The notes: generated by a model from the sequence alone, not told the origin. A stretch of 64,000 bases of DNA from Dehalococcoidia bacterium (GCA_963694535.1 CAVODE010000001.1:26134-90133); one strand, 5' to 3'; shown: positions 33,650 to 56,676, numbered from the stretch's first letter. Translations and numbers: made by a program.

Positions 33650-34336
33650 TTATGTCTTTTTGAAGGGAGGGGATGCATTTTCAGGCACCGATATCTCAAA
33701 TGTATTTAGCACGATAGAAATTGCTGAGTAATAGCCGATCAAGGTTGCAATCTCCATTATTCCGGCTTCACCTAAAGCTTCAGTGAGCGCCTTATAGGTA
33801 TCCTCTTGAATACGTTTAGTTTCGATCATTTGTATGCAAAACTCATAAACTAATGCCTCAGAGCCACCAAGATCTGGTTTTTCACCCAGCTGAATTGCAG
33901 TGACTACTTCCTGTTTAATGCCGGCTTCGAGGGCCATTCTGGCGTGCGCCCAGAACTCATATTGAGCCTGCCAGTGTGCTCCAATGGTGATAATTGCAAG
34001 CTCGAGCAGCGGGCGAGGAATGCTGGTGCCGTAACGCAGACGTGCTCCTAGTTCTTGCAGTGCTATACCAATATTGGGCGAGTACAACATTGAGTTAAAG
34101 GGGCCGCCGAGTGACCCATCTGATTGGATCATATTTGCGCCTCTTGGTCCAGTAGTGAGCGCCTCATAAGTTTGTTTTTGATCTGCGGTTAGAAGTTCTG
34201 GTGTGAGTCGTGTTAGACGTGACATATAGGTTAAAGCCTTTCTTTGGACGCAATGGGTGTGAAACACCCTCACAGTAGGATATCGGTAACCCACGAAGTT
34301 TTGTTGTATTGACCTGGATATGTTTATTATGCTCAC
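33650..34336 (-). CDS. Carboxymuconolactone decarboxylase (CMD/AhpD-like) family protein
   Basis: CMD-family all-alpha pattern. The true start is likely the internal ATG (MSRLTRLTPELL, about 34225). Confidence 0.55.
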   Translation of the reverse strand: MSIINISRSIQQNFVGYRYPTVRVFHTHCVQRKALTYMSRLTRLTPELLTADQKQTYEALTTGPRGANMIQSDGSLGGPFNSMLYSPNIGIALQELGARLRYGTSIPRPLLELAIITIGAHWQAQYEFWAHARMALEAGIKQEVVTAIQLGEKPDLGGSEALVYEFCIQMIETKRIQEDTYKALTEALGEAGIMEIATLIGYYSAISIVLNTFEISVPENASPPFKKT

Positions 34337-35214
34337 TATCTATGAATAGATATCAGATGTTGATTCTCGCGATCGGAATTTTCGCCTGTAGTTGGGCTGG
34401 CCCATTAATTAGGCTGGCAGATGAGGCTTCTTTTCTTTATATTGCCACTGCACGCCTTGTAATTGCCGCGCCAATAATGATCGTAGTTTCACTTCTAGGG
34501 CCTAAAGATTCGTATAGGACTCTGAAAATCGGTGTGATTTGTTTAATGGTTTTATCTGGAATTGCTTTAGCAGCTCACTTTGCGTTTTGGGTTTCAAGCA
34601 TTTCTAAAACTTCGATTTTAGCCTCAGTCGCATTGGTTGCAATGAGTCCACTATTTGCCGCTTTAGGTGGCTGGATGTTTCTCGGCGAGCGACCGAACGC
34701 GAGAGTATTGAGTGGTATCCTAGTGAGCTTTTGCGGAGCATCTGCCCTGCTCATCTCCGATTTTAAAGATGTCGGTAGCTTGTCAGGGGACATCTATGCG
34801 TTCATCGGTGCCATACTTGCTTCGATTTATCTATTGATTGGGCGTTATGTCAGGCAGCGTGTAGAGATGTCAGTTTATGCAGCAGTCGTCTATTCGGTTG
34901 GAGCTATTGTTCTACTCATTACCTTCTTGAGTCGAGAAACTTTAACCTTTAATTATGAAGTAAATACGTATATCTTTGTTCTTTTACTCGCTCTTGTCCC
35001 ACAGTTAATCGGCCATAACGCGATAAATTATTCCTTGGGATTTGCGCCGGCTGCCATTGTTGCATTGGCGATACTTGGTGAACCTGTAGGATCATCTTTG
35101 ATAGCAGCGCTGTTTCTTGATGAAATTCCTTCAATTTTTGAGATTGTTGTCGGGGGAGTAATTCTATCGGGTGTTTATATTGGTGTCCGAGGCGGTGCGA
35201 TATCATCGAGCTAG
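34309..35214 (+). CDS. EamA/DMT family transporter
   Basis: 301 aa, 10 TM helices, two EamA-like repeats. Confidence 0.7.
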   Translation: MTWICLLCSLSMNRYQMLILAIGIFACSWAGPLIRLADEASFLYIATARLVIAAPIMIVVSLLGPKDSYRTLKIGVICLMVLSGIALAAHFAFWVSSISKTSILASVALVAMSPLFAALGGWMFLGERPNARVLSGILVSFCGASALLISDFKDVGSLSGDIYAFIGAILASIYLLIGRYVRQRVEMSVYAAVVYSVGAIVLLITFLSRETLTFNYEVNTYIFVLLLALVPQLIGHNAINYSLGFAPAAIVALAILGEPVGSSLIAALFLDEIPSIFEIVVGGVILSGVYIGVRGGAISSS

Positions 35215-36449
35215 CCAAGCTCGACTTCAGGCCTTTCTTCCCAGACAACCTGATTACTAATTAAATCTGCAAGCTGACCTTCATTCATTCCCAGCAGTTC
35301 AGATAAAACTTCGCGACTGTGCTCTCCCATATCAGGCGCCGTTCCTTTGATTCCACCAGGTGTCCGCGACATCTTTATTGGCGTATTTGCTAGAGGCGTG
35401 GGTCCAAAAGTTTTGTGTTCTATTTCAGGGAGCATCTCGCGGGCCGCGACCTGAGGCATAGCGGACGTTTCTGCGATGTTATTGAGTGGTCCGCAAGGGA
35501 TTCCGTACTTTTGTAAAGCGTTAACCCAGTCGGATGTATTTCTCTGTGCAAAAGCTAGATTCAGTAGTGGCTCGAGTTCACTGTGGTTCCGACTCCGAGC
35601 AGCAGCAGTTTCAAAACGTGGATCATCGATAAGTTCCGGGATATCAAGTTCGACACAGAGAAGTGCCCATTGATTTGAGATGCCCCAAGAGAGGGCAATG
35701 ACAATGTAGCCATCTTTTGTGGGGAATGCTTGGAAAGGCACAGCAGTAGGATGTCGAGTACCAATGCGTCCAGGGATTTCCTTCGTTATGTGATATCGCA
35801 TAAATTCATTTGTTTGCACCGCAATTTGACAGTCAAGCATTGAAATATCTATTAGTTGGCCTTCACCAGACTTATGACGCTCGTGTATTGCAGCTAAAAC
35901 TCCAACTGCGCAATATAGCCCAGCCGCTACGTCCCCGACAGAAAATCCAACTCGCGCTGGCTCTGAATCCTCATATCCCGTAATGGACATAACTCCGCCA
36001 GCCCCCTGCACAATTACGTCGAGGGCCGGCTTATCCGAAAGTGGGCCTGTCTGACCGTATCCGGATATGGCAGCGTATATGAGTCCTGGATTTAGGTCTT
36101 TGAGGTCGGCATACCCGAGACCAAGGCGGCTCATTGCACCAGGTGTAAAGTTTTCCACCACGACGTCAACTTCTTTCACAAGATCCTGGAAAATACTTTT
36201 TCCTGATTCAGTAGTGAGATCAACCGCGATCGATCTCTTGCCTCGATTTATAGAAAAGAAGTAGCCGGATTCTCCATCGATCATCGGCATAGTGGTACGA
36301 GCGACATCTCCGTAGGGAGGCCTCTCCAATTTGATAACATCTGCTCCGAGGTCACCCAGAGTCTGAGTACACATCGGCCCGGATAAAATCCAGGTGAGGT
36401 CAAGGATACGAATTCCTTTCAGCGGACCAGAAGTTGGTAATGCGGGCAA
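35211..36449 (-). CDS. CaiB/BaiF family-III CoA-transferase
   Basis: 412 aa. N-terminal GIRILDLTWILSGP...LGDLGADVIKLE signature of family-III CoA-transferases. Confidence 0.85.
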   Translation of the reverse strand: MPALPTSGPLKGIRILDLTWILSGPMCTQTLGDLGADVIKLERPPYGDVARTTMPMIDGESGYFFSINRGKRSIAVDLTTESGKSIFQDLVKEVDVVVENFTPGAMSRLGLGYADLKDLNPGLIYAAISGYGQTGPLSDKPALDVIVQGAGGVMSITGYEDSEPARVGFSVGDVAAGLYCAVGVLAAIHERHKSGEGQLIDISMLDCQIAVQTNEFMRYHITKEIPGRIGTRHPTAVPFQAFPTKDGYIVIALSWGISNQWALLCVELDIPELIDDPRFETAAARSRNHSELEPLLNLAFAQRNTSDWVNALQKYGIPCGPLNNIAETSAMPQVAAREMLPEIEHKTFGPTPLANTPIKMSRTPGGIKGTAPDMGEHSREVLSELLGMNEGQLADLISNQVVWEERPEVELG

Positions 36450-36471
36450 TGAGAAGGCCTTTCTGACTTGG

Positions 36472-37008
36472 TTAGTCGATTAGCGCTGTTAGCAATTGTT
36501 CGATAACAGAGTTAGCTCTTTGATGCATTTCTTCATCTGTTTGGTCTTGCATTGGGTGAGGTACAAAGACCCTGTTGACGTCAGGCATGCCCAATGAGGT
36601 CGATTGAGCTACCGCAGCATCGACAAAACCATCTGTGGCCACAAATACTGCGGGGATTCCATTATTTTCAAACCAAACTGTGTCGTGCACACTGCACGTT
36701 GTACAAGATCCTCAGTCAGCGACTGCCTCGATCACAAAGTTACACTCATTCAGTATTTGTCTTCTGAGTTCGTAAGGCGCAGGTTTAGCAAAAGTAGGCT
36801 TCATGTATCTTTGTATTTTTACATTTGGCATTTGATTACTAATCAGTATTTCGACCCGGTCTAAGAACTTATTTCCGCGAGGCTTAGAGATATCAAGGAG
36901 ACCAACGGTTCCAGTGATATGCTCAGGTCTTTTAGTTCTAGTTCGCTTGATTGGTTCTCTTTCGTCGGTCGGATCCAGAATTGTCGTGGGTAAATCTTGT
37001 GGTGACAT
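36472..37008 (-). CDS. UGSC-family SELENOPROTEIN. In-frame TGA at 36712..36714 is read as Sec in motif U-G-S-C. The ORF track splits it into 36712..37092 and 36472..36690.
   Basis: The two track ORFs share a frame and are separated by one TGA plus 6 sense codons. The joined translation is ...NECNFVIEAVAD-U-GSCTTCSVHDTVWFENNGIPAVFVATDGF... The Sec-Gly-Ser-Cys motif is the defining motif of the UGSC selenoprotein family reported from marine metagenomes (recalled, not searched). The downstream piece has only a GTG start and no RBS. Start assigned to ATG 37006..37008, preceded by AGAAGG 8 nt upstream; an alternative ATG at 37090..37092 overlaps the upstream gene. Confidence 0.75.
36684..36698 (-). 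promoter_or_regulatory. Candidate SECIS hairpin downstream of the UGSC Sec-TGA
   Basis: mRNA CGUGCA[GUG]UGCACG: a perfect 6-bp stem starting 16 nt after the UGA, or a 5-bp stem with AGUGU loop. An outer 3-bp extension UGU...ACA (36679..36705) is possible. Found by eye. Confidence 0.35.
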
Positions 37009-37030
37009 TCTACAAACCTTCTTTCTGACT

Positions 37031-38620
37031 TCAGTCATTAATTTTTCGGCTGGTTGGGATGGACCCAGTGGGTCCGCTTGCCCATCCTTCAAGTACGGCC
37101 GAAAACTTACCGGCTTCTGCTCCAGCCACCATTATATGGATATTTTCGTTGCTGCGAAATTTAGGGATCATTTTATTTAGTTCTTCTTCGGACGCATTAG
37201 CAAATTGGTTGGGATCTAGTCCAGCTCCTATTTCTTCATTTCTTAACAGCGATCTCACAGATCGTTGCGTAATTTTCTGGATTCGGTCTCTAATTTGTTC
37301 TTTTGACCAACCATCCTCCCAGATTGTGGCCACATGTTCTGGACATAGTACGAGCATCGAATCACCATAATTGTGAGAGTTAGGATGATGGTTGGCTTCC
37401 ATTCGAACACCGAGGGAGCCTACTAATGATTTAGCGGTTCTCGACGTTTGATCGATTGCCACTCCGATACCGGTCATTGCGAAAGCAGTCACTACCGATT
37501 CATCTTTATTGAAGCCTCGTTCCACGTGGAGAGGATCCCATGGACTGATTTCTTCCCACTCCGCAAAGCAGGTTGAATACCGCATAGGCGATCCCTGAGT
37601 AGATCGTTCAGTCTCGCCTGGCCTTTGGCCACCGACATTTCTGAGTATCAGTCTCACCGCACGCCCGATTGCAGCGTTAGCTCTGTTCCCTTGGCCTAGA
37701 GCGTTCAGTCCCATATTCATTCCGATTCGTTGTCGAATCGGCCCATTGACCACCAGCACAGGAGTGGCACCCATAGTGGTAGCGCCGACCCCGTGTGCAT
37801 TGAATTCTTCATTACACACAGCTTCTACCGCTGCAATAACTACTGGGAGATATTCAGGTAGGCAGCCTGCCATTACCGAATTTATTGCTATTTTTTCAAC
37901 GGTCACCGGAGCCAAGTTAGGAGGCACAATTGCCACAGTATCTTGTGAATCTCTTTTTGTTCCATCTAGCATTCGAATGACACGCTCAGGGGTGGGGGGG
38001 ATGACAGGCAGTCCATCGGTCAGGCCTTGTTGATACATAAATTCATGGACATCGTCGTGAAGTGCAACTTCGACCCTGCGCGCCCTGATTGGCGATCCTT
38101 CTGACTCGGCTTTCAGTCGTTCAAAAATCCCAGGCTCCAGAGATTTTGAGCCACATCCAGGTCTTGATTCAGGATATATATCCCAGTCAATTTCCGGCAT
38201 AGTACTTTTATTTATCTTGGCTAAGTCCTCGAATAAACTTTTCCAGTCGTCTCGTCCAAAACCCACAAATGTGCGAGTCGGAGTTCCATCAGGAGTTGCT
38301 AGGACTAAAGTGGGGACAGTTTCGATTTCATATGCGTACGAGGTATTTAGCGTGGACTCATCCAGAAAAGGTAGTGTCATCGAATATTCCTCTGTGAGGA
38401 CCAGGTCATCATCTCCATTTTGCGCCAACGCAACGATATCGACTCCGTCACTGAATTCTTCGAATGCCTTTTGCAGTAGGGGCATGGAAATTCTTGTTGT
38501 TGGACAATCTTCCTTAACAAAACAAAGCAGGGTTGGCCTTCCCGAAGGAAAGGAGTAAGCATTTTGTGTTCTCGTAGCACCAGCCGTTGGCAAAGAAAAT
38601 GAAGGCAGTTGGGTGGGCAT
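37031..38620 (-). CDS. Fusion protein: N-terminal thioredoxin-fold (AhpC/TSA-like, single Cys in DCPTT) plus ~380-aa C-terminal domain of unknown function
   Basis: 529 aa. The N-terminal ~140 aa resembles a peroxiredoxin/TlpA-like fold (LLCFVKEDCPTT...VPTLVLATPDG). The C-terminal domain matches nothing I can name. Translationally coupled to the UGSC selenoprotein gene downstream. Confidence 0.5.
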   Translation of the reverse strand: MPTQLPSFSLPTAGATRTQNAYSFPSGRPTLLCFVKEDCPTTRISMPLLQKAFEEFSDGVDIVALAQNGDDDLVLTEEYSMTLPFLDESTLNTSYAYEIETVPTLVLATPDGTPTRTFVGFGRDDWKSLFEDLAKINKSTMPEIDWDIYPESRPGCGSKSLEPGIFERLKAESEGSPIRARRVEVALHDDVHEFMYQQGLTDGLPVIPPTPERVIRMLDGTKRDSQDTVAIVPPNLAPVTVEKIAINSVMAGCLPEYLPVVIAAVEAVCNEEFNAHGVGATTMGATPVLVVNGPIRQRIGMNMGLNALGQGNRANAAIGRAVRLILRNVGGQRPGETERSTQGSPMRYSTCFAEWEEISPWDPLHVERGFNKDESVVTAFAMTGIGVAIDQTSRTAKSLVGSLGVRMEANHHPNSHNYGDSMLVLCPEHVATIWEDGWSKEQIRDRIQKITQRSVRSLLRNEEIGAGLDPNQFANASEEELNKMIPKFRSNENIHIMVAGAEAGKFSAVLEGWASGPTGSIPTSRKIND

Positions 38621-38639
38621 TGGATTATATCTTTCTCTG

Positions 38640-39020
38640 TTAGTACAGCTCTAGTGTTGAAGTATCTATATTAAAATATCCTATCGCGATTATAAACAAA
38701 ATTAGCAATGCGACAAGTCTTTTCTTGCCGGACTTGGTTCCATGTTTTTGCATAATTCTTTTCACAGAACGAACATCACTTTTTCCTAGAGCAAACCATT
38801 CCCCATGAATCCGCATTTCCGCGCAATATCTATGAAGATATCGCTCGAGTTCTTTAGGATTTTTCGTCTTAGTGATTTTCACTAACCTTAATAACACTGG
38901 CGATCCAGTTTGCAAGTTCGAAAAGCGTGTTTTGGGATTAATCGTTCGACCAATTTTAAAGAGATCCTTGCCGGCTTCTCTTGGTCCTTGAATAAGATAA
39001 ACGTAACCGTGTTGGGCCAT
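38640..39020 (-). CDS. T5orf172/MUG113 (GIY-YIG-like) domain protein with C-terminal TM helix
   Basis: GYVYLIQ...FKIGRT...P..R...L...GEWF pattern of the T5orf172 family. Hydrophobic C-terminal tail LVALLILFIIAIGYF. First gene of the operon. Confidence 0.5.
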   Translation of the reverse strand: MAQHGYVYLIQGPREAGKDLFKIGRTINPKTRFSNLQTGSPVLLRLVKITKTKNPKELERYLHRYCAEMRIHGEWFALGKSDVRSVKRIMQKHGTKSGKKRLVALLILFIIAIGYFNIDTSTLELY

Positions 39021-39114: not shown

Positions 39115-39915
39115 ATGGGCATTCTTGATGAGTTTGATTTAACAGGTCAAGCGGCAATTATTACTGGCGCGGGAACCGGTCTGGGACGTGAAATGGCCTT
39201 GTCTCTGGCCGATGCAGGTTGCGACATTGTGGGTGTGGGTCGACGGCCTGAACCTATTGAAAGTGTTGGTGATGAGATACGTTCGCGCGGCAGGAGGTAC
39301 TTTGGAATCCCTGGCGGCGACGTCACAAATTCAACCAGAGTGAATGAAATAGTTGCTGAGGCTATTCAAGAAATGGGCCGTATAACCTTAATGATCAATA
39401 ATGCTGGACTGGGTGGCTCTGGGCGCGGGAAAACACTCCCTGAGCTCACTGACGAGGACTGGCACAGTGGGATCGAAAGCAATTTATATTCAGCATTTTA
39501 TTGCTCTAGGGCGATCATTCCTCATTATTTAGACAATGGTGGTGGGAGAGTAATCAACGTCACTTCTGGATGGGGTTATCGAGGGGGGCGTAATAATTTT
39601 ATGTATCCGATTGCAAAGGGTGGTGTCATCCAGTTAACAAAGGCACTTGCAATGACTTATGCAAGGGATAACATTCGCGCTTCATGTATTGCTCCGGGCC
39701 TATTTCCTAAAACTGACGATGAGGCAATGCTCGAACAATTAGGGAGTAGACAACCAGCTGGTCGTATCGGATTCATGCCAGAGATGGGACCATTAGCCGT
39801 ATTTTTAGCGTCGACTGCATCAGATTATCTCAGTGGAGAAACAATTTTAATGGACGGTGGTTCTATAGCAGCTGGCCTCACACCAGCTGGAATTATTCCA
39901 CAGTCTGAATCGTAA
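39115..39915 (+). CDS. SDR family oxidoreductase
   Basis: TGAGTGLG Rossmann motif, NNAG, YxxxK-like region. Confidence 0.8.
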   Translation: MGILDEFDLTGQAAIITGAGTGLGREMALSLADAGCDIVGVGRRPEPIESVGDEIRSRGRRYFGIPGGDVTNSTRVNEIVAEAIQEMGRITLMINNAGLGGSGRGKTLPELTDEDWHSGIESNLYSAFYCSRAIIPHYLDNGGGRVINVTSGWGYRGGRNNFMYPIAKGGVIQLTKALAMTYARDNIRASCIAPGLFPKTDDEAMLEQLGSRQPAGRIGFMPEMGPLAVFLASTASDYLSGETILMDGGSIAAGLTPAGIIPQSES

Positions 39916-39933
39916 GTTATTGGAGAGAATTTT

Positions 39934-40782
39934 ATGAGTAATCAAGTATTTCCTATTACACCGGAAGGTGAAAAGAATCCATATTTTCAAAAGCGATATT
40001 TCGATCTATCTGGGAAACACGCACTAGTAGGTGGAGCTACGACTCCACTGGCGAGGGCACTAGCTGTGGCATTAGCGGAAGCAGGCGCGAGAGTCTCAGT
40101 GACGACGTTGAGCACTGATAAGACTGAAGAAGTCGAAGCAAATTCGATATTGAACGAATGCTGGGCAGCATCTGGTCTTGAGGGGACGTGTCTCACGTTA
40201 GATTTGACGGACGTTGCCCGAGTTGAATCGTCTATTAGTGATTTGGAGGAGGCATTGGGGCCTCTCGATATCCTTGTCAATGGTGCTCATTTTGCCAACA
40301 TTAAACCGGTGCTTGATGCAACTCTCGTTGAGTGGAATCAGGAATTGAGCAGGAATGCCACATCCGTGTTTGTGGCGAGCCAGGTTATCGGTCAACGCAT
40401 GGTTGCCAGAGGCAAGGGTCGAATAATTAATCTTGTATCTAATTTACATGATCGTGGAATTCCGAACTGCGCTATTTTTGGTGCATCTCAGGGGGCTGTA
40501 CTAGGATTCACCAAATCATTGGGAATCGAGTGGGGGAGCGGCGATCCGTTAACTAAGGACCGAGTGACTGTGAACGCACTTGGAATTGGTTTCTATGAAG
40601 ACACGCCAGGCCCTCAAAATGATACAGATCTATCATCGGTGCTTGAGAAATATATTCCCTTGCGCCGACTGGGAACTCCTGCCGATTTACGAGGCGCCGT
40701 CGTGTATCTGGCTTCGGACGAGGCAGAGTACGTCAACGCTGAATTACTTGTTGTTGACGGCTCCATTGTGAACCATGCCTAA
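39934..40782 (+). CDS. SDR family oxidoreductase (paralog)
   Basis: Short-chain dehydrogenase layout. VGGATTPLARALA Rossmann-like N-terminus. Confidence 0.7.
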   Translation: MSNQVFPITPEGEKNPYFQKRYFDLSGKHALVGGATTPLARALAVALAEAGARVSVTTLSTDKTEEVEANSILNECWAASGLEGTCLTLDLTDVARVESSISDLEEALGPLDILVNGAHFANIKPVLDATLVEWNQELSRNATSVFVASQVIGQRMVARGKGRIINLVSNLHDRGIPNCAIFGASQGAVLGFTKSLGIEWGSGDPLTKDRVTVNALGIGFYEDTPGPQNDTDLSSVLEKYIPLRRLGTPADLRGAVVYLASDEAEYVNAELLVVDGSIVNHA

Positions 40783-40818: not shown

Positions 40819-42480
40819 TTGGATCGTATGACGATAGATAAATTTTATGTTTTGGTGTCTTCGTTTTTTTTGACTGCTCTTTTAATTTTTGCTATGGCTT
40901 GTTCACAAGATTCTATAGCCGAGGTGCAGGAGAATAATGTCGTAGCGACCACCGAAGCGACCACCGAAGCGACCACCGAAGCGACCACCGAAGCGACCAC
41001 CGAAGCGACCACCGAAGCGACGGTACGAACGCTTAGAATTGCTGTACCGAGCAAGTTTTTATCGGAAGTAAGTACTGATCTTTTACTGGAAGAAATATTT
41101 TTACGTAAGTTATACGTTGGACTTTCGAGAATTGAACCATCGGGCCGACTGCGGCCTGAAATGATTATGGTGCTACCGAGCAAAGAGAACGAGGGTATCT
41201 CTTCTGATGGATTGACTTATACGTTTCTTTTGGCTCAAGACTTGAAGTGGTCTAACGAGGAGCCAGTGACCGCTCAACAAATTCTCGACACGTTAAATAG
41301 CTACGATACCGTTAAAGAGACTAAACCAGGGTTACTGGAACTCTTTAGCAATATTGACTTAGAACAGAGCATCGTTTTAGATGATCGAACGTTAGTGCTT
41401 AAGCTCAGAGAGTCGAGCTCGGAGTTCTTGACGCTTTCAGCTCTTCTTCCATTTTTTCCGATTCGCAGTGGGTCTTCAGACGGAGGAACTTATTTTTTTT
41501 CTAATGGCCCGTTCAAAATTAGCTCATGGGAAGATAGTAGGGTCACGTTAGTGTCTAACGACCAGTGGATCGATCAGATTGGTAATATTGCTGCACATGA
41601 GATTCAGGAGCTTGAATTTGTAGGTTATGACAGTTTCAGTGACGCTACCGAAGGCTTTTTGAACGGCGAAGTTGATGTTGTTAACCTAATCGCATCTCAA
41701 CTATCTTCTGATTTCCAGATTCCCTCTGAAGGTGAAATTTCTGTAAAAACTAGACACATCACGTATGGCGTGTTTGTAAATAGCGAATCAATGTTTTTTT
41801 CCCAAGTCGATTCACGGAAAGCACTAGCCCTGAATCTTAATAAACGAGAACTTCTAGATATGCTTTCAGTAGAAATCCAGAGAGGTCACTCCTATACGAA
41901 TTCATGGATTCCGGAGGGTATTAGTGGCAGTGACAATTCGGCTGGCTTAGCGCTCTCTGGATCGAAAGAGCTAGCCACAGACTACTGGGCAAGAGGAAAA
42001 AATGCTGAAGGCATTAATGTCGAATTGCTTTATTCCTTGGAAAATCCCCTCCACGCAGAGCTTGCGGTCGAGCTCAAGAAGTTATGGGAGCAAAAGTTAC
42101 CTCTTCAAATAAACTTGAGACCAGAAAATGCAGAAGAATATTTTGCTGATTTAAAAACTGGGCGTTATCAATTAGCGATTGGTGGTTGGCAGGCTGATTA
42201 TCCAAGTGCAGCAAACTGGTTGCACCCATTTGCGACTGATTCTGATGAAAATTTTTTAAATTTTTCGGACGATAAGTATGATTCTTTTCTGCAGTCTGCT
42301 GATATGGCGAATAACAGGGACGAGCGGCTTTCTGAATATGCCAAGGCTCATAACTATCTCATTGAGCAAGGCGTGATTATCCCGATACTGCATCCTGTTT
42401 CACTTGCGCTTGTTCGCTCAGAATTCAGCGCCGCAGTAAATACTATGTTTGATTTCCAAGGGACGTGGACCTTTGATTGA
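40819..42480 (+). CDS. ABC transporter substrate-binding protein, family 5 (peptide/nickel type), probable lipoprotein with (ATTE)6 linker
   Basis: 553 aa. Signal peptide ending ...FAMAC. SBP_bac_5-like body. Confidence 0.65.
   Translation: MDRMTIDKFYVLVSSFFLTALLIFAMACSQDSIAEVQENNVVATTEATTEATTEATTEATTEATTEATVRTLRIAVPSKFLSEVSTDLLLEEIFLRKLYVGLSRIEPSGRLRPEMIMVLPSKENEGISSDGLTYTFLLAQDLKWSNEEPVTAQQILDTLNSYDTVKETKPGLLELFSNIDLEQSIVLDDRTLVLKLRESSSEFLTLSALLPFFPIRSGSSDGGTYFFSNGPFKISSWEDSRVTLVSNDQWIDQIGNIAAHEIQELEFVGYDSFSDATEGFLNGEVDVVNLIASQLSSDFQIPSEGEISVKTRHITYGVFVNSESMFFSQVDSRKALALNLNKRELLDMLSVEIQRGHSYTNSWIPEGISGSDNSAGLALSGSKELATDYWARGKNAEGINVELLYSLENPLHAELAVELKKLWEQKLPLQINLRPENAEEYFADLKTGRYQLAIGGWQADYPSAANWLHPFATDSDENFLNFSDDKYDSFLQSADMANNRDERLSEYAKAHNYLIEQGVIIPILHPVSLALVRSEFSAAVNTMFDFQGTWTFD
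40945..41021 (+). repeat. Perfect tandem repeat, 12-nt unit gcgaccaccgaa x6 (plus partial), encoding (ATTE)6
   Basis: Read directly: six identical 12-nt copies in frame within the SBP linker, right after the signal peptide/lipobox. Confidence 0.95.
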
Positions 42481-43179: not shown

Positions 43180-43998
43180 GTGCGCCTGTGGCGACGAATA
43201 AAAGAAAAAAGGTTGGAGATACTTATGAATAGATATGATGGAATGAGCGCGTTGGTGACCGGTGCTGGGTCAGGGATTGGTCGTGCGATGGCGCTCCGAT
43301 TAGCAGATGAAGGCTGCGCAGTTCTTTGTGCAGATATCGATCAGGACGGCACTGAGAGCACTGCTGCAAAAGTACTTGAGCATGGTGGTAAATCAGCCGC
43401 AGTGGTATTGGACGTGACAGATTCTGATGCAGTGAAGGATGCATTGGAAAGAACAATCTCTGAATTCGGATCTATTGATGTACTTATGAATAATGCTGGA
43501 GTAGGTGGTGGTGCAGGCTGGGATCAGACGATTGCAGTGAACCTTAGTGGGGTCTACTACGGACTACTGCATGGTTGCAAGATGATGGCCGAGAGAGGCG
43601 GTGGTTCGATCGTGAACACAGCGTCAGTGGCTGGCCTCAATGGGTTAGTTGGGGGTTCGGGTGCAGTAAAACCTGCCGACATTAATCCCAGCGATGGTCC
43701 CGGGGCGTACACGGCAGCTAAGCATGGGGTCGTGGGTCTTACTCGCCAATTTGCAGTGATATACGGTAAGCAGAATGTCCGAGTGAACGCATTGTGCCCA
43801 GGTTACATTTTTACACCGATGACGGCAGGTATGCGTGATCGTGAAGGCGGCCAAGAATTTTTAGAGAGCTTGCATCCGATGGGGCGGCTAGGTGAGCCGG
43901 AGGAAATAGCCTCCGCTGCAGCTTTCCTCGCAAGTTCAGACGCATCTTTTGTGACCGGAGTTGCTCTGCCTATTGATGGCGGATACACGGCTCGATAG
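43180..43998 (+). CDS. SDR family oxidoreductase
   Basis: [10 protein letters not shown] Rossmann motif, NNAG, YTAAK catalytic motif. Confidence 0.85.
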
Positions 43999-44020
43999 CC
44001 GTTGGACACGGGACGTCGGT

Positions 44021-46441
44021 ATGTCACATATAGGCCGTAATTCAGACAAGAGACCGTTGTCGGAACTGCGGGTGCTCGAAATATCTGACGGAGTTGCTGG
44101 CGCGTACGCGGGTCGATTGCTTGGTGATCTTGGCGCTCGTGTCATTAAAGTAGAAGACGCGACTGGTGTTGGGCTGAGAGCACTTGGACCTTTCCCACTC
44201 ACTGCACCAGGCGATACAGAGGCCGGCGGATTACATCTGGCGCTCGACGTGGGGAAAGAATCAATTGTTATCGATTTTCAGGAAACCGTTGATGTTGAGC
44301 GGTTAGATAATCTTGTTTCAGCTGTTGATATTGTGCTTCTATCAAGCTCGACTAAGTTTGATAGAGCTTTGTTAGATCAACAAGTCGCTCTCAGAGATAA
44401 AAATCAAGAATTAGTGTTAGGTGTTCATACGCCTTTTGGTACGGACGGCCCCTATTCGGACAGATCTTCGAGCGAAATAGTTGACTATGCAATGGGCGGC
44501 TACATGTATTTCTCAGGCGATCCAAAACGGGAGCCATTGCTGGCCCCTGGATTCCAGGGTGAATTTCATGCGGGTATGCAACTCGCATTTGGGGTTATGA
44601 CAGGCGCATATCACTCGTTAAAGACAGGCAGGGGGCAGACGGTCGAGGTCTCAACTTTTGAAAGCATGCTCAATGCACATTCCTGGCTGACAAGTTCATG
44701 GACTCACGAGGGAGTAATTCAATCTAGAAAAGATACATGGATCACAAAATGTTTAGATGGACATGTATTTTGGATGCCTCGTCCGGATCCTCAATTTTTT
44801 GCAATGATTGAGCGACCAGATTTAATTGATGACCCTCGACTTGATTCAATGCTTGAATTCCGAGATGCTGTTCCAGAATATCGAGCAGCTTTTGCTGACT
44901 GGGCAAAAAACAAGAAGAAGCAGGATATTTATCATGAGGCTCAAGCGCTTAGAATTGCGGTCACTCCGGTTAATGATGCTGAGGACTTACGAAATAGCCC
45001 GCAACTTCGAGCCAGAGAATTTTGGCGAACAGTCGATTCACCTGTCGGCAAAATCGAGATACCTGGCCCGCCGTGGAATTTCAGCGACGTGGAACTGGGA
45101 CCAGCATCGCGCGCTCCTCATCTAGGGGAGCACCAGGATTTAGAACTAGAGGACCGCCTGCCCAGAGTTTATAGTCAGTCTGTGAGCTCCCTTGAGCTGC
45201 CTTTGTCAGGGGTACGTGTTCTTGAGGTTACTGCTAACTGGGCAGGCCCTTTAACTGGAAGACACCTTGGTGATTTGGGTGCAGATGTCATAAAGATTGA
45301 AGTTGCGAAGAAGCCAGCTACTAGGGCTGTGACCTATCCCGGACAACAGAGTTGGGACACTGCTCATAACCGTGCCGCCTATTTCAATCTACTGAACCGA
45401 AATAAACGTGATCTTGGAGTCGATTTATCTGATCCAGCTGGTCGCGATTTATTTTTAGACCTCGTAGAGAAATCTGATATCGTGCTCGAAAACAACAGTG
45501 CGCGGGTGTTTCCAAGTCTTGGACTTGACTATGAGAATCTTCGTGATCGCAATGAGGAACTAATCATGTGTTCGATGTCAGGCATGGGACTAGGTGGCCC
45601 AGAAATGCAATATTTGGCATATGGCTCAAATATTGAGGCTTCGAGCGGATTTGTTGCAAGGCTTGGATATTCCGAAGATTCTCTTTTTTCATCGGGCTCT
45701 TTTTACGCTGATCCCATCTGCGGCACACATGGGGCGATCGGTCTTGTGGCATCACTTTTTTCTCGAGATAGTGGAGCTAATGACGGAGGAGGTCGTTTCA
45801 TTGATATGTCGCTTCAAGAATCTGGAATTATGTTCAGTACAGAATCAATTATGAACCTTCAGATCCGAAATGAAGTCATGGTGCCAGTGGCCAATAAGTC
45901 AAGTAGATGGGCGCCTCAGGGTGTATATGCGACGGTCGGTGATGATTGTTGGATTTCAATTGCATGTAAAACGGATACGGATTGGGTCAACTTATGTCGG
46001 ATTATTTTTGAAGATGAGCTGAGTGCGGTTTACATCTTTAAATTTGCTGACATATCTGTACGTGAAGAATTTCATGAAGAAATTGACGAATTGATCTCAT
46101 CGTGGGCGGCAGGACTTAATCATAATGAAGCAACTAAAATTCTCCAAGACGGAGGAATAAGCGCAGGGCCTGTCTTGCAGAATTGGGAAATAGTGTCAGA
46201 CCCGCATTTATTCGCCCGAGATTACTTTGTTGACATTGTGCATCCAGATGTCGGACATTACCGATGGGATGGATTTCCCTGGAAATTTAGTGAAACTAGA
46301 GCTCAAATCCGACGACCTGCACCACTTTTTGGAGAACATACGATAGAAATTTGTGAAGAGATTGCAGGCTTGAGTCAGGATGAAATTGAACAACTCAAAC
46401 AATCAGGAGTTGTACAGGATAAGTTGGAACCGGTTACTTGA
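44021..46441 (+). CDS. Tandem-fused double family-III (CaiB/BaiF) CoA-transferase
   Basis: Two full CoA-transferase III modules in one ORF (RVLEISDGVAGAYAGRLLGDLGARVIKVE ... and RVLEVTANWAGPLTGRHLGDLGADVIKIE ...). Start set to the ATG after the SDR stop; the track start at 43961 overlaps the SDR. Confidence 0.75.
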   Translation: MSHIGRNSDKRPLSELRVLEISDGVAGAYAGRLLGDLGARVIKVEDATGVGLRALGPFPLTAPGDTEAGGLHLALDVGKESIVIDFQETVDVERLDNLVSAVDIVLLSSSTKFDRALLDQQVALRDKNQELVLGVHTPFGTDGPYSDRSSSEIVDYAMGGYMYFSGDPKREPLLAPGFQGEFHAGMQLAFGVMTGAYHSLKTGRGQTVEVSTFESMLNAHSWLTSSWTHEGVIQSRKDTWITKCLDGHVFWMPRPDPQFFAMIERPDLIDDPRLDSMLEFRDAVPEYRAAFADWAKNKKKQDIYHEAQALRIAVTPVNDAEDLRNSPQLRAREFWRTVDSPVGKIEIPGPPWNFSDVELGPASRAPHLGEHQDLELEDRLPRVYSQSVSSLELPLSGVRVLEVTANWAGPLTGRHLGDLGADVIKIEVAKKPATRAVTYPGQQSWDTAHNRAAYFNLLNRNKRDLGVDLSDPAGRDLFLDLVEKSDIVLENNSARVFPSLGLDYENLRDRNEELIMCSMSGMGLGGPEMQYLAYGSNIEASSGFVARLGYSEDSLFSSGSFYADPICGTHGAIGLVASLFSRDSGANDGGGRFIDMSLQESGIMFSTESIMNLQIRNEVMVPVANKSSRWAPQGVYATVGDDCWISIACKTDTDWVNLCRIIFEDELSAVYIFKFADISVREEFHEEIDELISSWAAGLNHNEATKILQDGGISAGPVLQNWEIVSDPHLFARDYFVDIVHPDVGHYRWDGFPWKFSETRAQIRRPAPLFGEHTIEICEEIAGLSQDEIEQLKQSGVVQDKLEPVT

Positions 46442-56204: not shown

Positions 56205-56335
56205 TGCCTACCTACTTACTGAATACTCATATATTTCTAATCTTAGTATCTTTAGTCTTTCGCTGAAATAGAAGCAATTTCTTGAAGCCAGATTAGACTT
56301 TCTTGTAGTATAGTTAAAACATCAGTAGAAAATTC

Positions 56336-56425
56336 CCGCTGGGGGGGCCATTACTGGCTGAGATTCTTGTTAATCAAGGACAACCCCAAAAACCTGAACT
56401 CGGTAATTCGAGCGGAGGAAAGCGG
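56336..56425 (+). ncRNA. TPP (THI-box) riboswitch
   Basis: P1 CCGCU...AGCGG enclosing GGGGGGCC...GGCUGAGA...ACCCC...ACCUGAAC...GGUAAUUCGAGCGGAGGAAAG. This matches the conserved THI-element cores (GGGGUGCC / GCUGAGA / ACCUGAUC / GGAUAAUGCCAGCGUAGGGAAG). It sits in the 5' leader of an NMT1/THI5-type ABC importer operon. A possible -10 TATAGT lies at 56309..56314, and a weak stem-loop plus CCTTTTG at 56446..56468 may act as expression platform. Confidence 0.8.
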
Positions 56426-56676
56426 CAAGACAGTTCACTCGAAATTAGAGTGCCTTTTGATCTAGCCACGAACCTCACAACGAAAATAACCGTCTCAGAA
56501 TCTGCTTCTCTATCGGGGGTAAATGCGGAGAGGTTATTTGGAATGATCAGAGAAACTCTATCATCAGGTATAAATTCAATGCGTGCTCACATAAAAGGCG
56601 CTCATATCGTGCGTGATATGAATTCTCTTGCAAATAAATTCAGATAGACCAATAGAAATAATAAGTAAGCAGTGGT

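What the first reader, a model, noticed from the sequence alone, without database searches (positions are those of the whole stretch)
35211..39020. Four-gene operon coupling a T5orf172 protein, a thioredoxin-fold/unknown-domain fusion, the UGSC selenoprotein and a CoA-transferase
Genes 38640..39020, 37031..38620, 36472..37008 and 35211..36449 are all on the minus strand with gaps of 22 nt or less (19, 22, 22 nt), divergent from an SDR pair, so they are very likely co-transcribed. The 529-aa protein joins an AhpC/TSA-like thioredoxin-fold domain (single Cys, DCPTT) to a ~380-aa C-terminal domain I cannot assign to any family. Its placement immediately upstream of a UxxC-type selenoprotein suggests a dedicated thiol/selenol redox relay of unknown substrate, possibly feeding the CaiB-type CoA-transferase. 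The functions of the UGSC family and of the unknown domain are both undefined, so this gene neighbourhood is a candidate novel system.
Basis: inference. Interest (0 to 1): 0.65.

Follow-up and report, generated by a model that had tools for sequence, protein, structure and literature searches.

The report
Selenoprotein UGSC and its obligate partner
The two middle genes form a widespread, uncharacterised two-part selenium enzyme: the UGSC selenoprotein, whose function has been unknown for about 20 years, plus a partner protein with a fold unlike any solved structure, apparently powered by thioredoxin.

Summary
All four minus-strand genes exist as described, and the UGSC gene carries an in-frame TGA followed by a conserved hairpin. 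Only the two middle genes form a conserved unit.

- **Pairing, partner to UGSC:** 69 of 80 genome loci holding a homologue of the 529-aa protein have UGSC directly downstream.
- **Pairing, UGSC to partner:** about 60 of 69 UGSC metagenome loci have the partner directly upstream.
- **Fusions:** the two are fused in either order in other organisms.
- **Sec usage:** all 152 adjacent UGSC copies have a stop codon at the selenocysteine position.
- **UGSC:** a remote relative of the Sec region of glycine-reductase selenoprotein B, sharing its UxxCxxC motif.
- **Electron supply:** where X lacks the fused thioredoxin domain, trxA and/or trxB sit in the same operon (Arthrobacter, Roseovarius, Variovorax).

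Best reading: a thioredoxin-driven two-subunit (seleno)reductase acting on an imported organic acid. The substrate is unknown.

The CoA-transferase is a recurrent but optional neighbour. The T5orf172 gene is lineage-specific.

The parts
37031..38620 (-). Gene for the 529-aa partner protein: TlpA-like thioredoxin domain, conserved linker and novel 'X' domain
   Evidence: ORF. More than 8000 full-length homologues at 56-78% identity. Alignment A1. AlphaFold model with pLDDT 82.
38201..38620 (-). Thioredoxin-fold domain (residues 1-140), a 1-Cys variant: C39-P-T-T, with the Cys codon at 38504-38506
38054..38200 (-). Conserved linker predicted to be flexible (residues ~141-189), with invariant P-G-C156-G-S (Cys codon 38153-38155)
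   Evidence: P154, G155, C156, G157 and S158 are invariant in A1. pLDDT is 42-55. The linker is also present in the partners of Cys-type UGSC and absent from stand-alone X proteins.
37034..38053 (-). 'X' domain (residues ~190-529), with no known family or fold. The family-wide invariant C253 (codon 37862-37864) lies just before helix 255-268. Other invariant residues are D202, R313, N315 and R320.
36472..37008 (-). UGSC-family selenoprotein gene (178 aa) with U99-G-S-C102-T-T-C105
   Evidence: The Sec position is a stop codon in 152 of 152 adjacent homologues: 151 TGA and 1 TAG.
36712..36714 (-). In-frame UGA read as selenocysteine
   Evidence: The position is conserved.
36684..36698 (-). SECIS-like hairpin CGUGCA-GUG-UGCACG, 13 nt downstream of the UGA
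   Evidence: It pairs in 132 of 132 sequences, with G-C changing to G-U or A-U at one pair. It overlaps conserved codons, so the evidence is only moderate. In the window alone z = 0.91.
35211..36449 (-). Family III (CaiB/BaiF-type) CoA-transferase with a TTG start, a facultative associate of the pair
   Evidence: Pfam 429.9 bits, but below every NCBIfam equivalog cut-off. Adjacent in about 11 of 160 loci. Also adjacent in Roseovarius (41% identity), Halalkalicoccus (36%) and L174.
38640..39020 (-). T5orf172/MUG113 (GIY-YIG-like) small protein with a hydrophobic C-terminal tail. It is lineage-specific and not part of the conserved module.
   Evidence: Pfam. Weak PADLOC PDC-S57 hit. Present at the same position in the 78% relative L168 and absent from all other loci.
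39115..40782 (+). Divergent pair of SDR oxidoreductase genes (39115-39915 and 39934-40782), a frequent but variable neighbour type
   Evidence: Pfam. SDRs lie near the pair in about 12 loci, in Variovorax inside the operon, and in L168.

Best explanation
Genes 37031-38620 and 36472-37008 encode the two subunits of one enzyme. The first subunit is a cytoplasmic protein made of a thioredoxin-like domain, a flexible Cys-bearing linker and a catalytic or substrate-binding domain of a new fold ('X'). The second is the small UGSC selenoprotein.

Proposed mechanism:
1. The selenolate of U99, possibly together with the invariant C253 of X, attacks a small-molecule substrate held by X.
2. The resulting selenium adduct or selenenylsulfide is resolved by C102 and C105 of the U-x-x-C-x-x-C motif.
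3. The oxidised centre is re-reduced by the fused thioredoxin-like domain. Here that domain is a 1-Cys variant, probably working with linker C156.
4. Electrons ultimately come from NAD(P)H through thioredoxin reductase.

The logic parallels 'protein B' of the glycine and D-proline reductases: a selenoprotein B, a substrate-specific partner and thioredoxin. The partner here is unrelated to theirs, and the hosts are mostly aerobic heterotrophs. The substrate is most likely an imported organic acid, in some lineages handled as a CoA thioester.

Shown: the pairing, the fusions, the Sec usage, the lack of any solved structural relative and the linkage to trxA/trxB. Inferred: reductase activity, the order of the relay, the chemistry and the substrate class.
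For: **Synteny.**
- 69 of 80 genome loci have UGSC downstream on the same strand. The median alignment gap is 44 nt and 63 gaps are <= 160 nt.
- The hosts span Chloroflexota, Binatia, Alpha-, Beta- and Gammaproteobacteria, Acidobacteriota, Actinomycetota, Myxococcota and Gemmatimonadota.
- In the converse test, about 59-61 of 69 UGSC loci have the partner directly upstream.
- Stand-alone X proteins are also adjacent to UGSC in 4 of the 6 stand-alone or tandem X proteins looked up; the other two sat on short contigs that ended before a neighbour could be seen.

**Fusions.**
- X-UGSC fusions are truncated by gene callers exactly at the UGA.
- UGSC-X fusions exist with Cys or Sec.

**Sec usage.**
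- Sec is present in 152 of 152 adjacent copies.
- The GOS survey counted 255 Sec forms against 21 Cys forms (PMC2398784).
- selB lies nearby in 11 loci and selA in 7.

**Relation to GrdB.**
- 9 of 17 UGSC sequences hit GrdB/GrdF models in the Sec region, best E = 9.8e-5.
- They share the UxxCxxC motif that the literature gives for GrdB (PMC13188914).

**Thioredoxin linkage.**
- Arthrobacter: trxB-trxA-X-UGSC.
- Roseovarius: X-UGSC-trxB.
- Variovorax: trxB-TctC-SDR-X-UGSC.
- TrxR also lies nearby in L170, L141 and L043.

**Catabolic context.** Neighbours include LysR, GntR and IclR regulators, TRAP, TTT and MFS transporters, CoA-transferases, acyl-CoA dehydrogenases and SDRs.

**Active-site Cys.** C253 sits just before the N-terminus of a helix, as nucleophilic or redox-active cysteines often do.
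Against: - No biochemical data exist for any member, and the substrate is unknown.
- The similarity to GrdB is weak: 16-17 bits against cut-offs of 600-800, and Pfam GRDB is not hit.
- No pyruvoyl-type partner (GrdE/PrdA) is present.
- About 10% of partner genes have no UGSC within 6 kb, even by HMM search. About 12% of UGSC genes have unrelated genes upstream.
- Some fused relatives (Sporomusa, Vibrio) have a UGSC-like domain without Sec or Cys. X may therefore have chemistry that does not need the chalcogen.
- I could not model the complex, so the proximity of U99, C253, C156 and C39 is untested.
- Neighbour families such as CoA-transferase and SDR are very common in these genomes.
Confidence: 0.6

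Rival explanations
1. The system is a generic antioxidant or thiol-disulfide system. The thioredoxin/peroxiredoxin-like domain and the UxxC selenoprotein would detoxify peroxides or repair oxidised proteins, and X would be a scaffold.
For: - A Pfam AhpC-TSA hit lies just above the cut-off, 28.1 against 26 bits.
- UxxC motifs are typical of thiol oxidoreductases, and the literature groups UGSC with thioredoxin-fold selenoproteins (PMC2398784 and PMC13188914).
Against: - The structural neighbours are reductase-type TlpA, ResA and DsbE proteins rather than peroxiredoxins.
- No T/S-x-x-C peroxidatic motif is present: K36 occupies the -3 position.
- The family norm is CxxC.
- The operons look catabolic, with LysR and GntR regulators, TRAP and TTT transporters and CoA enzymes, not stress regulons.
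- A 340-aa invariant-rich domain of new fold that is obligatorily paired and fused would be left unexplained.
- The Sec/Cys ratio resembles GrdB and PrdB, not Prx or Trx families.
Confidence: 0.15
2. The CoA-transferase is an integral step, X/UGSC acts on an acyl-CoA thioester or makes the acid that the transferase activates, and the four genes are one pathway operon.
For: - The gap is 22 nt on the same strand.
- CoA-transferase adjacency recurs in distant lineages: L008, L012, L023-L027, L117 and L174, plus Roseovarius (41% identical) and Halalkalicoccus (36%).
- Those identities compare with 26-29% for the window's own paralogues.
- Acyl-CoA dehydrogenases lie in 21 loci and thiolase-like genes in 8.
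Against: - The transferase is adjacent in only about 7% of loci, often on the opposite strand.
- It is absent from the 71% relative L004. It cannot be seen in the 78% relative L168, whose contig ends just after UGSC.
- Family III transferases, ACADs and SDRs are massively expanded in these genomes.
- T5orf172 is clearly not part of any conserved unit.
Confidence: 0.25
3. X/UGSC works in selenium or sulfur trafficking, or in maturation of selenoproteins, not in catabolism.
For: - selA and selB lie next to the pair in 7-11 loci.
- DsrE, TusA and a cysteine desulfurase lie upstream in Paracoccus.
Against: - sel genes commonly sit next to an organism's main selenoprotein gene.
- Cys-type pairs occur in haloarchaea, which to my knowledge lack Sec machinery; their UGSC copies have Cys, not a stop codon, at the Sec position.
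- The operons carry transporters and catabolic regulators.
Confidence: 0.07

Closest known systems
Protein B of the glycine, sarcosine, betaine and D-proline reductases (GrdB/GrdF/GrdH/PrdB with GrdE/PrdA), and the proposed fluoroacetate reductase FarB/FarE
   Same: - A small Sec subunit with a U-x-x-C-x-x-C motif.
- Weak but repeated sequence similarity to the Sec region of GrdB and GrdF.
- Sec is almost never replaced by Cys.
- The selenoprotein is always paired with a substrate-specific partner gene.
- trxA and trxB are encoded in the operon (grd clusters with trxA are shown in PMC10838667).
   Different: - The partner X is not related to the pyruvoyl proproteins GrdE and PrdA. It has no Pfam hit even at E <= 1 and no PDB fold match.
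- No GrdA, GrdC or GrdD appears in any annotated neighbourhood.
- The hosts are mostly aerobic heterotrophs and haloarchaea, not Stickland fermenters.
- UGSC covers only about the last 90 residues of GrdB, and scores lie far below family cut-offs.
'UGSC-containing protein' selenoprotein family (Zhang & Gladyshev, Sargasso Sea and GOS selenoproteomes; Pfam PF24696; NCBIfam NF041046)
   Same: The window gene is a clear member. The GOS paper already noted that the family is abundant, mostly Sec-containing and sometimes fused to a domain it called 'Unknown_1' (PMC2398784).
   Different: In the papers I could search, the family is listed as of unknown function and presumed to have a thioredoxin-like fold. 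I found no description of the near-obligate partner, its fold or the trxA/trxB linkage. Figure S1A of the GOS paper is held only as an image, so I could not confirm that 'Unknown_1' is X.
TlpA/ResA/DsbE (CcmG) thiol-disulfide reductases
   Different: Those proteins are membrane-anchored and extracytoplasmic, and they serve cytochrome maturation. This domain has no signal peptide or anchor, is fused to X, and in the window has lost the second Cys.
[not shown]
   Same: The architecture follows the same logic: a TlpA-like domain fused to a client enzyme whose oxidised Cys or Sec it reduces. Free trxA replaces the domain in relatives that lack the fusion.
   Different: The client here (X plus UGSC) is unrelated to methionine sulfoxide reductases.

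Membership tests
UGSC family (PF24696 / NF041046) | HMM score above the curated cut-off | tested here: met
   Pfam 166.2 bits against a cut-off of 25, and NCBIfam 163.7 against 125.
UGSC family (PF24696 / NF041046) | U/C-G-S-C motif with Sec encoded by an in-frame UGA followed by a hairpin | tested here: met
   AD-U-GSC-TTC with TGA at 36712-36714. The hairpin at 36684-36698 is conserved in 132 of 132 sequences.
GrdB/PrdB selenoprotein B (TIGR01917, TIGR01918, NF040794, PF07355) | HMM score above the family cut-off | tested here: not met
   16.4-17.5 bits against cut-offs of 602-800. Pfam GRDB is not hit at E <= 1. Only remote similarity remains, in 9 of 17 members.
GrdB/PrdB selenoprotein B | U-x-x-C-x-x-C redox motif | tested here: met
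   U99-G-S-C102-T-T-C105. The motif is given for GrdB in PMC13188914. The third Cys varies in distant UGSC clades, being W or A.
GrdB/PrdB selenoprotein B | Adjacent pyruvoyl proprotein partner (GrdE/PrdA), and GrdA/GrdC/GrdD for the glycine-type enzymes | tested here: not met
   X has no Pfam hit at E <= 1. None of the annotated neighbourhoods lists these families.
GrdB/PrdB selenoprotein B | Thioredoxin or thioredoxin reductase as electron donor, encoded with the enzyme | tested here: met
   The window protein has a fused thioredoxin-like domain. trxB and/or trxA lie in the operons of Arthrobacter, Roseovarius and Variovorax. This is genetic linkage only; activity was not tested.
TlpA/ResA/DsbE thiol-disulfide oxidoreductases | Thioredoxin fold with the characteristic insert | tested here: met
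   [not shown]
TlpA/ResA/DsbE thiol-disulfide oxidoreductases | CxxC active site | tested here: not met
   The window has C39-P-T-T. 80 of 82 homologues have C-x-T-C.
TlpA/ResA/DsbE thiol-disulfide oxidoreductases | Signal peptide or membrane anchor (extracytoplasmic location); NCBIfam score above cut-off | tested here: not met
   The N-terminus MPTQLPSFSLPTAGATRTQNAYSFPSGRP has no hydrophobic segment (read directly from the sequence). ResA scores 24.9 bits against a cut-off of 170.
Peroxiredoxin (AhpC/TSA) | Peroxidatic Cys in a P-x-x-x-T/S-x-x-C context | tested here: not met
   The sequence around C39 is F-V-K-E-D-C, with no T or S at the -3 position. The Pfam score only just passes, 28.1 against 26. 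The structural neighbours are reductases.
Family III CoA-transferase (CaiB/BaiF/Frc) | Pfam CoA_transf_3 over the full length; a specific equivalog for substrate assignment | tested here: inconclusive
   The family itself is met, with 429.9 bits over 10-378. The best equivalogs, succinate-glutarate and succinyl-CoA:mesaconate transferases, score 336 and 320 bits against cut-offs of 750 and 700. The substrate is therefore unassigned.
T5orf172 / MUG113 (GIY-YIG-like) | Pfam domain above the cut-off | tested here: met
   61.3 and 51.3 bits. The catalytic residues were not examined.

The most novel reading that the evidence does not exclude
X plus UGSC is a new class of thioredoxin-dependent selenoenzyme with a catalytic subunit of a new fold. 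It would carry out GrdB/PrdB-type reductive bond cleavage: selenolate attack on a carbon next to a carboxylate or thioester, expelling an N, S, O or halide leaving group. It would do this in aerobic bacteria and haloarchaea as part of organic-acid catabolism. That would take 'Stickland-type' selenium chemistry outside anaerobic fermenters and explain one of the most abundant aquatic selenoprotein families.
Probability: 0.3. Interest if true: 0.9.

Novelty: categorically new. Interest (0 to 1): 0.78.

Why it matters
[quoted passage not shown] In the GOS survey it had 255 Sec forms in 37 samples. A 2026 review still lists its function as unknown.

This work gives the family a concrete biochemical frame:
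- a near-obligate partner, fused to it in some lineages;
- a partner fold with no solved relative;
- a thioredoxin/thioredoxin reductase electron supply.

The question also becomes directly testable, because natural Cys-type versions sit in compact operons of cultured organisms:
- Roseovarius sp. THAF8 (FIU85_RS20945-20935)
- Arthrobacter sp. ERGS1:01 (AL755_RS00575-00560)
- Halalkalicoccus jeotgali B3 (HACJB3_RS16760-16750)
- Variovorax sp. SRS16

The work also shows that thousands of proteins annotated 'TlpA family protein disulfide reductase', 'redoxin' or 'peroxiredoxin' are named after a minor accessory domain.

Tried and rejected
- **AFDB search.** The afdb50 Foldseek library was unavailable, so I made no comparison with predicted structures.
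- **PDB sequence searches.** Sequence and profile searches for X and for UGSC gave nothing.
- **Pfam GRDB.** It does not hit UGSC. Only the NCBIfam GrdB and GrdF models do, and weakly.
- **Pyruvoyl idea.** I considered X as a pyruvoyl proprotein like GrdE or PrdA. I rejected it as unsupported: no homology exists, and the invariant Cys sits at a helix N-terminus rather than at a recognisable cleavage loop.
- **GOS Figure S1A.** The 'UGSC/Unknown_1 fusion' figure is held only as an image.
- **PADLOC.** Only a weak T5orf172-domain hit to candidate system PDC-S57 was found. I found no sign that the locus is a defence island.
- **Promoter and terminator scan.** The counts equal chance.
- **SECIS thermodynamics.** The fold in the window alone is not significant.
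- **Divergent UGSC.** An HMM search in the 10 partner loci that lack UGSC found none.
- **sel genes in the window.** No selA or selB homologue was found; selD and tRNA-Sec were not searched.

Full report
**1. Observation**

The region holds four minus-strand ORFs exactly as described: 38640-39020, 37031-38620, 36472-37008 and 35211-36449. The gaps are 19, 22 and 22 nt, and two SDR genes diverge from them at 39115-39915 and 39934-40782.

Pfam and NCBIfam give these assignments:
- T5orf172/MUG113 for the 126-aa protein.
- Family III CoA-transferase for the 412-aa protein (429.9 bits), but below every substrate-specific equivalog cut-off.
- UGSC for the 178-aa protein (PF24696 at 1e-48; NF041046 at 163.7 bits against a cut-off of 125).
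- Only a weak thioredoxin/AhpC-TSA-like match at residues 4-112 of the 529-aa protein. Nothing matches residues ~150-529, in PDB sequences either.

The UGSC frame is interrupted by one TGA at 36712-36714, giving AD-U-GSC-TT-C. Thirteen nucleotides downstream lies a 6-bp hairpin, CGUGCA-GUG-UGCACG. It can pair in all 132 distinct homologous sequences I aligned. One pair changes G-C to G-U in 25 sequences and to A-U in 2. Two caveats apply. The hairpin overlaps conserved codons, and in the window alone the fold is no more stable than shuffled sequence. I take it as moderate support for a bacterial SECIS.

The window comes from a marine Dehalococcoidia (SAR202-like) genome. This follows from identical or near-identical proteins in Tara and JGI contigs and in MAGs.

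**2. The conserved unit is two genes, not four**

I scanned one genome per species with an alignment of the 529-aa family and obtained 80 loci from at least 8 phyla.
- 69 loci have a UGSC gene on the same strand downstream.
- 63 of those lie within 160 nt of the alignment end.
- Three further loci found by exact look-up show the same arrangement.

I then ran the converse test, scanning metagenome contigs with a UGSC alignment.
- About 59-61 of the 69 loci with at least 300 nt of upstream sequence have the partner directly upstream.
- 8 loci have unrelated genes there.

The outer genes behave differently.
- T5orf172 was found next to the pair only in a 78%-identical relative.
- A family III CoA-transferase is adjacent in about 11 of 160 loci, often on the opposite strand.
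- The window itself has three such paralogues within 64 kb, so the background is high.
- Even so, the adjacency recurs in very distant hosts: the window and L008 (Chloroflexota), several Pseudomonadales, Roseovarius (41% identical to the window's enzyme), L174 and the haloarchaeon Halalkalicoccus (36%).

I therefore class the CoA-transferase as a facultative associate.

**3. The pair behaves as one enzyme**

A search with the C-terminal domain alone found 5203 cluster representatives. They include stand-alone proteins of about 350 aa, tandem duplications and fusions.
- Several proteins are X followed by the first ~95 residues of UGSC and end in '...A-[LIV]-A-D' or '...G-D'. Gene callers stopped exactly at the Sec UGA.
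- Others are UGSC-X fusions, either carrying Cys (D-C-G-S-C-T-A/S-W) or starting just after the UGA.
- Further fusions occur in Acidovorax and in Variovorax boronicumulans.

I looked up six stand-alone or tandem X proteins. Four are next to a UGSC gene, including a divergent one at 34% identity that still reads A-G-A-U-G-S-C. The other two sit on short contigs that ended before a neighbour could be seen.

Some Dehalococcoidia and haloarchaea carry X - UGSC - X'.

The core is therefore X plus UGSC, and the thioredoxin-like domain is an add-on of the window's subfamily. The GOS paper of 2008 mentioned a 'UGSC/Unknown_1 fusion' (PMC2398784). That is probably this domain, but I could not verify it because the figure is held as an image.

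**4. Selenium**

Every one of the 152 adjacent UGSC genes has a stop codon at the U position: 151 TGA, and one TAG in Candidatus Blastococcus massiliensis.

A Cys clade does exist, with the motif ALSD-C-GSCTSC. Its members also follow Trx(CxxC)-PGCGS-X partners that are 38-41% identical to the window protein.

The GOS table gives 255 Sec forms against 21 Cys forms for UGSC. For comparison it gives 253 against 7,348 for peroxiredoxin and 235 against 110 for PrdB. selB lies within 6 kb of the pair in 11 loci and selA in 7.

A near-exclusive use of Sec is what the GrdA, GrdB and PrdB families show, where selenium does carbon chemistry. Thioredoxin-fold redox families do not show it. This last point rests on established knowledge together with the cited table.

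**5. What the parts are**

*Linker.* Residues ~141-189 are predicted to be flexible (pLDDT 42-55) yet are highly conserved, with an invariant P-G-C156-G-S. The linker is present whenever the thioredoxin domain is present.

*X domain.* Modelled on its own, X is confident (pLDDT 90.7, pTM 0.89). It has no structural relative:
- the best Foldseek E is 2e-3, with TM <= 0.26;
- a profile against PDB sequences gives no hit;
- none of 38 members has a Pfam hit, even at E <= 1.

Residues invariant across fused and stand-alone members are D202, C253 (motif A-G-C, just before helix 255-268), R313, N315 and R320.

*UGSC.* It has no PDB relative. Nine of 17 members do hit the NCBIfam models for glycine-reductase selenoprotein B and sarcosine-reductase GrdF, best E = 9.8e-5. 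The match runs from UGSC residues ~86-175 to GrdB positions ~333-419. By offset arithmetic this covers the region holding GrdB's Sec; I did not check it residue by residue. The UGSC motif U-G-S-C-T-T/S-C equals the UxxCxxC motif reported for GrdB (PMC13188914).

**6. Electron supply and context**

Relatives in which X has no fused thioredoxin domain encode thioredoxin system genes in the operon:
- Arthrobacter sp. ERGS1:01: trxB-trxA-X-UGSC.
- Roseovarius sp. THAF8: LysR> X-UGSC-trxB, with a divergent CaiB-type CoA-transferase and a TRAP transporter.
- Variovorax sp. SRS16: trxB-TctC-SDR-X-UGSC-like.

A true TrxR (TIGR01292, 376 bits against a cut-off of 343) lies near the pair in L170, and further TrxR homologues lie in L141 and L043. 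This replacement of the fused domain by free trxA and trxB is the strongest functional clue. It mirrors the classical grd operons, which carry trxA and trxB (known from the literature; grd clusters with trxA appear in PMC10838667).

The neighbours are otherwise variable but catabolic in character:
- LysR, GntR, IclR and XRE regulators;
- TRAP, TTT, MFS and ABC transporters;
- acyl-CoA dehydrogenases (21 loci), SDRs (12), CoA-transferases, thiolase-like proteins and enoyl-CoA hydratases.

**7. Mechanism proposed**

Shown: X and UGSC are a conserved unit that is often fused. UGSC uses Sec. X has no solved structural relative. The unit is genetically tied to thioredoxin and thioredoxin reductase.

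Inferred, with my estimated likelihoods:
- It is a thioredoxin-driven reductase (about 0.6-0.65).
- U99, C102 and C105 form the relay. The selenolate attacks a substrate bound in X, near C253.
- The Se-S or S-S product is reduced by the thioredoxin domain. In this 1-Cys variant that probably involves linker C156.
- GrdB-like selenoether chemistry on an alpha-substituted acid or acyl-CoA is a speculation I hold at about 0.3.

Counter-observations:
- About 10% of partner genes lack an adjacent UGSC, even by HMM search.
- The Sporomusa and Vibrio fusions have a UGSC-like domain with G-D-M-G-T-S, carrying neither Sec nor Cys, and sit next to aconitase X and DUF126. X may therefore have chemistry of its own.

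**8. Comparison and novelty**

The selenoprotein half is a catalogued family whose function is stated as unknown as recently as 2026. The partner half is uncatalogued and is mis-named after its accessory domain as TlpA, redoxin or peroxiredoxin.

The nearest characterised system is protein B of the glycine and proline reductases. Its defining features were tested and not met: family-level scores, the pyruvoyl partner, and GrdA/GrdC/GrdD. The locus 'works like' that system at most in its logic.

My searches of the held literature found nothing on function or on the pairing. I therefore rate the module as lying outside known kinds of system. Its selenoprotein component and a fusion were, however, noticed before.

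**9. Verdict**

Interest is high, because the result turns a 20-year-old orphan selenoprotein family into a defined two-component system linked to thioredoxin, with cultured hosts carrying Cys forms that are available for experiments.

Noticed in passing
L067:7719-7775 (Candidatus Blastococcus massiliensis AP3, NZ_HG931175.1): This is the only adjacent UGSC gene of 152 with TAG instead of TGA at the selenocysteine position, in an isolate genome. It could be a pseudogene, a sequencing error or a truncated product.
   Followed up: no
L030, L034, L036, L038-L040, L056, L063, L064, L126, L144; also L181 (Paracoccus ferrooxidans): selB lies within 6 kb of the X-UGSC pair in 11 loci and selA in 7, mainly in Phenylobacterium and other Alphaproteobacteria. 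This suggests that UGSC is the main or only selenoprotein that keeps the Sec machinery in those genomes.
   Followed up: partly
L182:5320-7044 (Sporomusa termitida pSPTER) and L178:6362-8047 (Vibrio europaeus pVEu): These are fusions of about 565 aa in which a UGSC-like N-terminal domain has lost both Sec and Cys (G-D-M-G-T-S) and is joined to X. In both hosts the gene sits next to aconitase X and DUF126 genes. This may be a non-redox offshoot of the family.
   Followed up: partly
P0210 and P0239 (from the search): These are X-domain proteins with a C-terminal extension of about 86 aa that carries a CxxC motif (A-C-A-E-C-L-V-P and A-C-L-D-C-I-M-P) in place of UGSC. It may be an alternative cysteine-based redox partner.
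   Followed up: no
window 38640-39020 (-): The T5orf172/MUG113 protein has a hydrophobic C-terminal tail (LVALLILFIIAIGYF) and a weak hit to the candidate defence family PDC-S57 (E = 2e-8, N-terminal domain only). It keeps the same position in a 78%-identical relative (L168) but occurs nowhere else.
   Followed up: partly
window 43961-46441 (+): An 826-aa ORF with a TTG start contains two family III CoA-transferase-like halves, matching at 44054-45160 and 45200-46414. It is either a tandem fusion or two genes merged by the mechanical ORF call. With 35211-36449 it makes three such paralogues within 64 kb.
   Followed up: partly
window 56331-56437 (+): A TPP riboswitch (RF00059) scores 68.8 bits against a gathering score of 54.3.
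   Followed up: no
window 33650-34336 (-): A 228-aa ORF with a GTG start has no Pfam, NCBIfam or PADLOC hit. Its 5' end overlaps the start of the EamA transporter gene on the other strand (34309-35214) by 28 nt.
   Followed up: partly
window 40819-42480 (+): The SBP_bac_5 solute-binding protein has an N-terminal hydrophobic segment followed by six exact 'ATTE' repeats (TTEATTEATTEA...). This looks like a lipoprotein-type or low-complexity linker.
   Followed up: no
L032, L044-L046, L048, L054, L164 (Dehalococcoidia) and L183 (Halalkalicoccus jeotgali): One or two extra stand-alone X paralogues lie directly next to the Trx-X/UGSC pair, giving X-UGSC-X'. This suggests hetero-oligomers or several substrate-specific X subunits sharing one UGSC, much as several protein B complexes share one reductase core.
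   Followed up: partly
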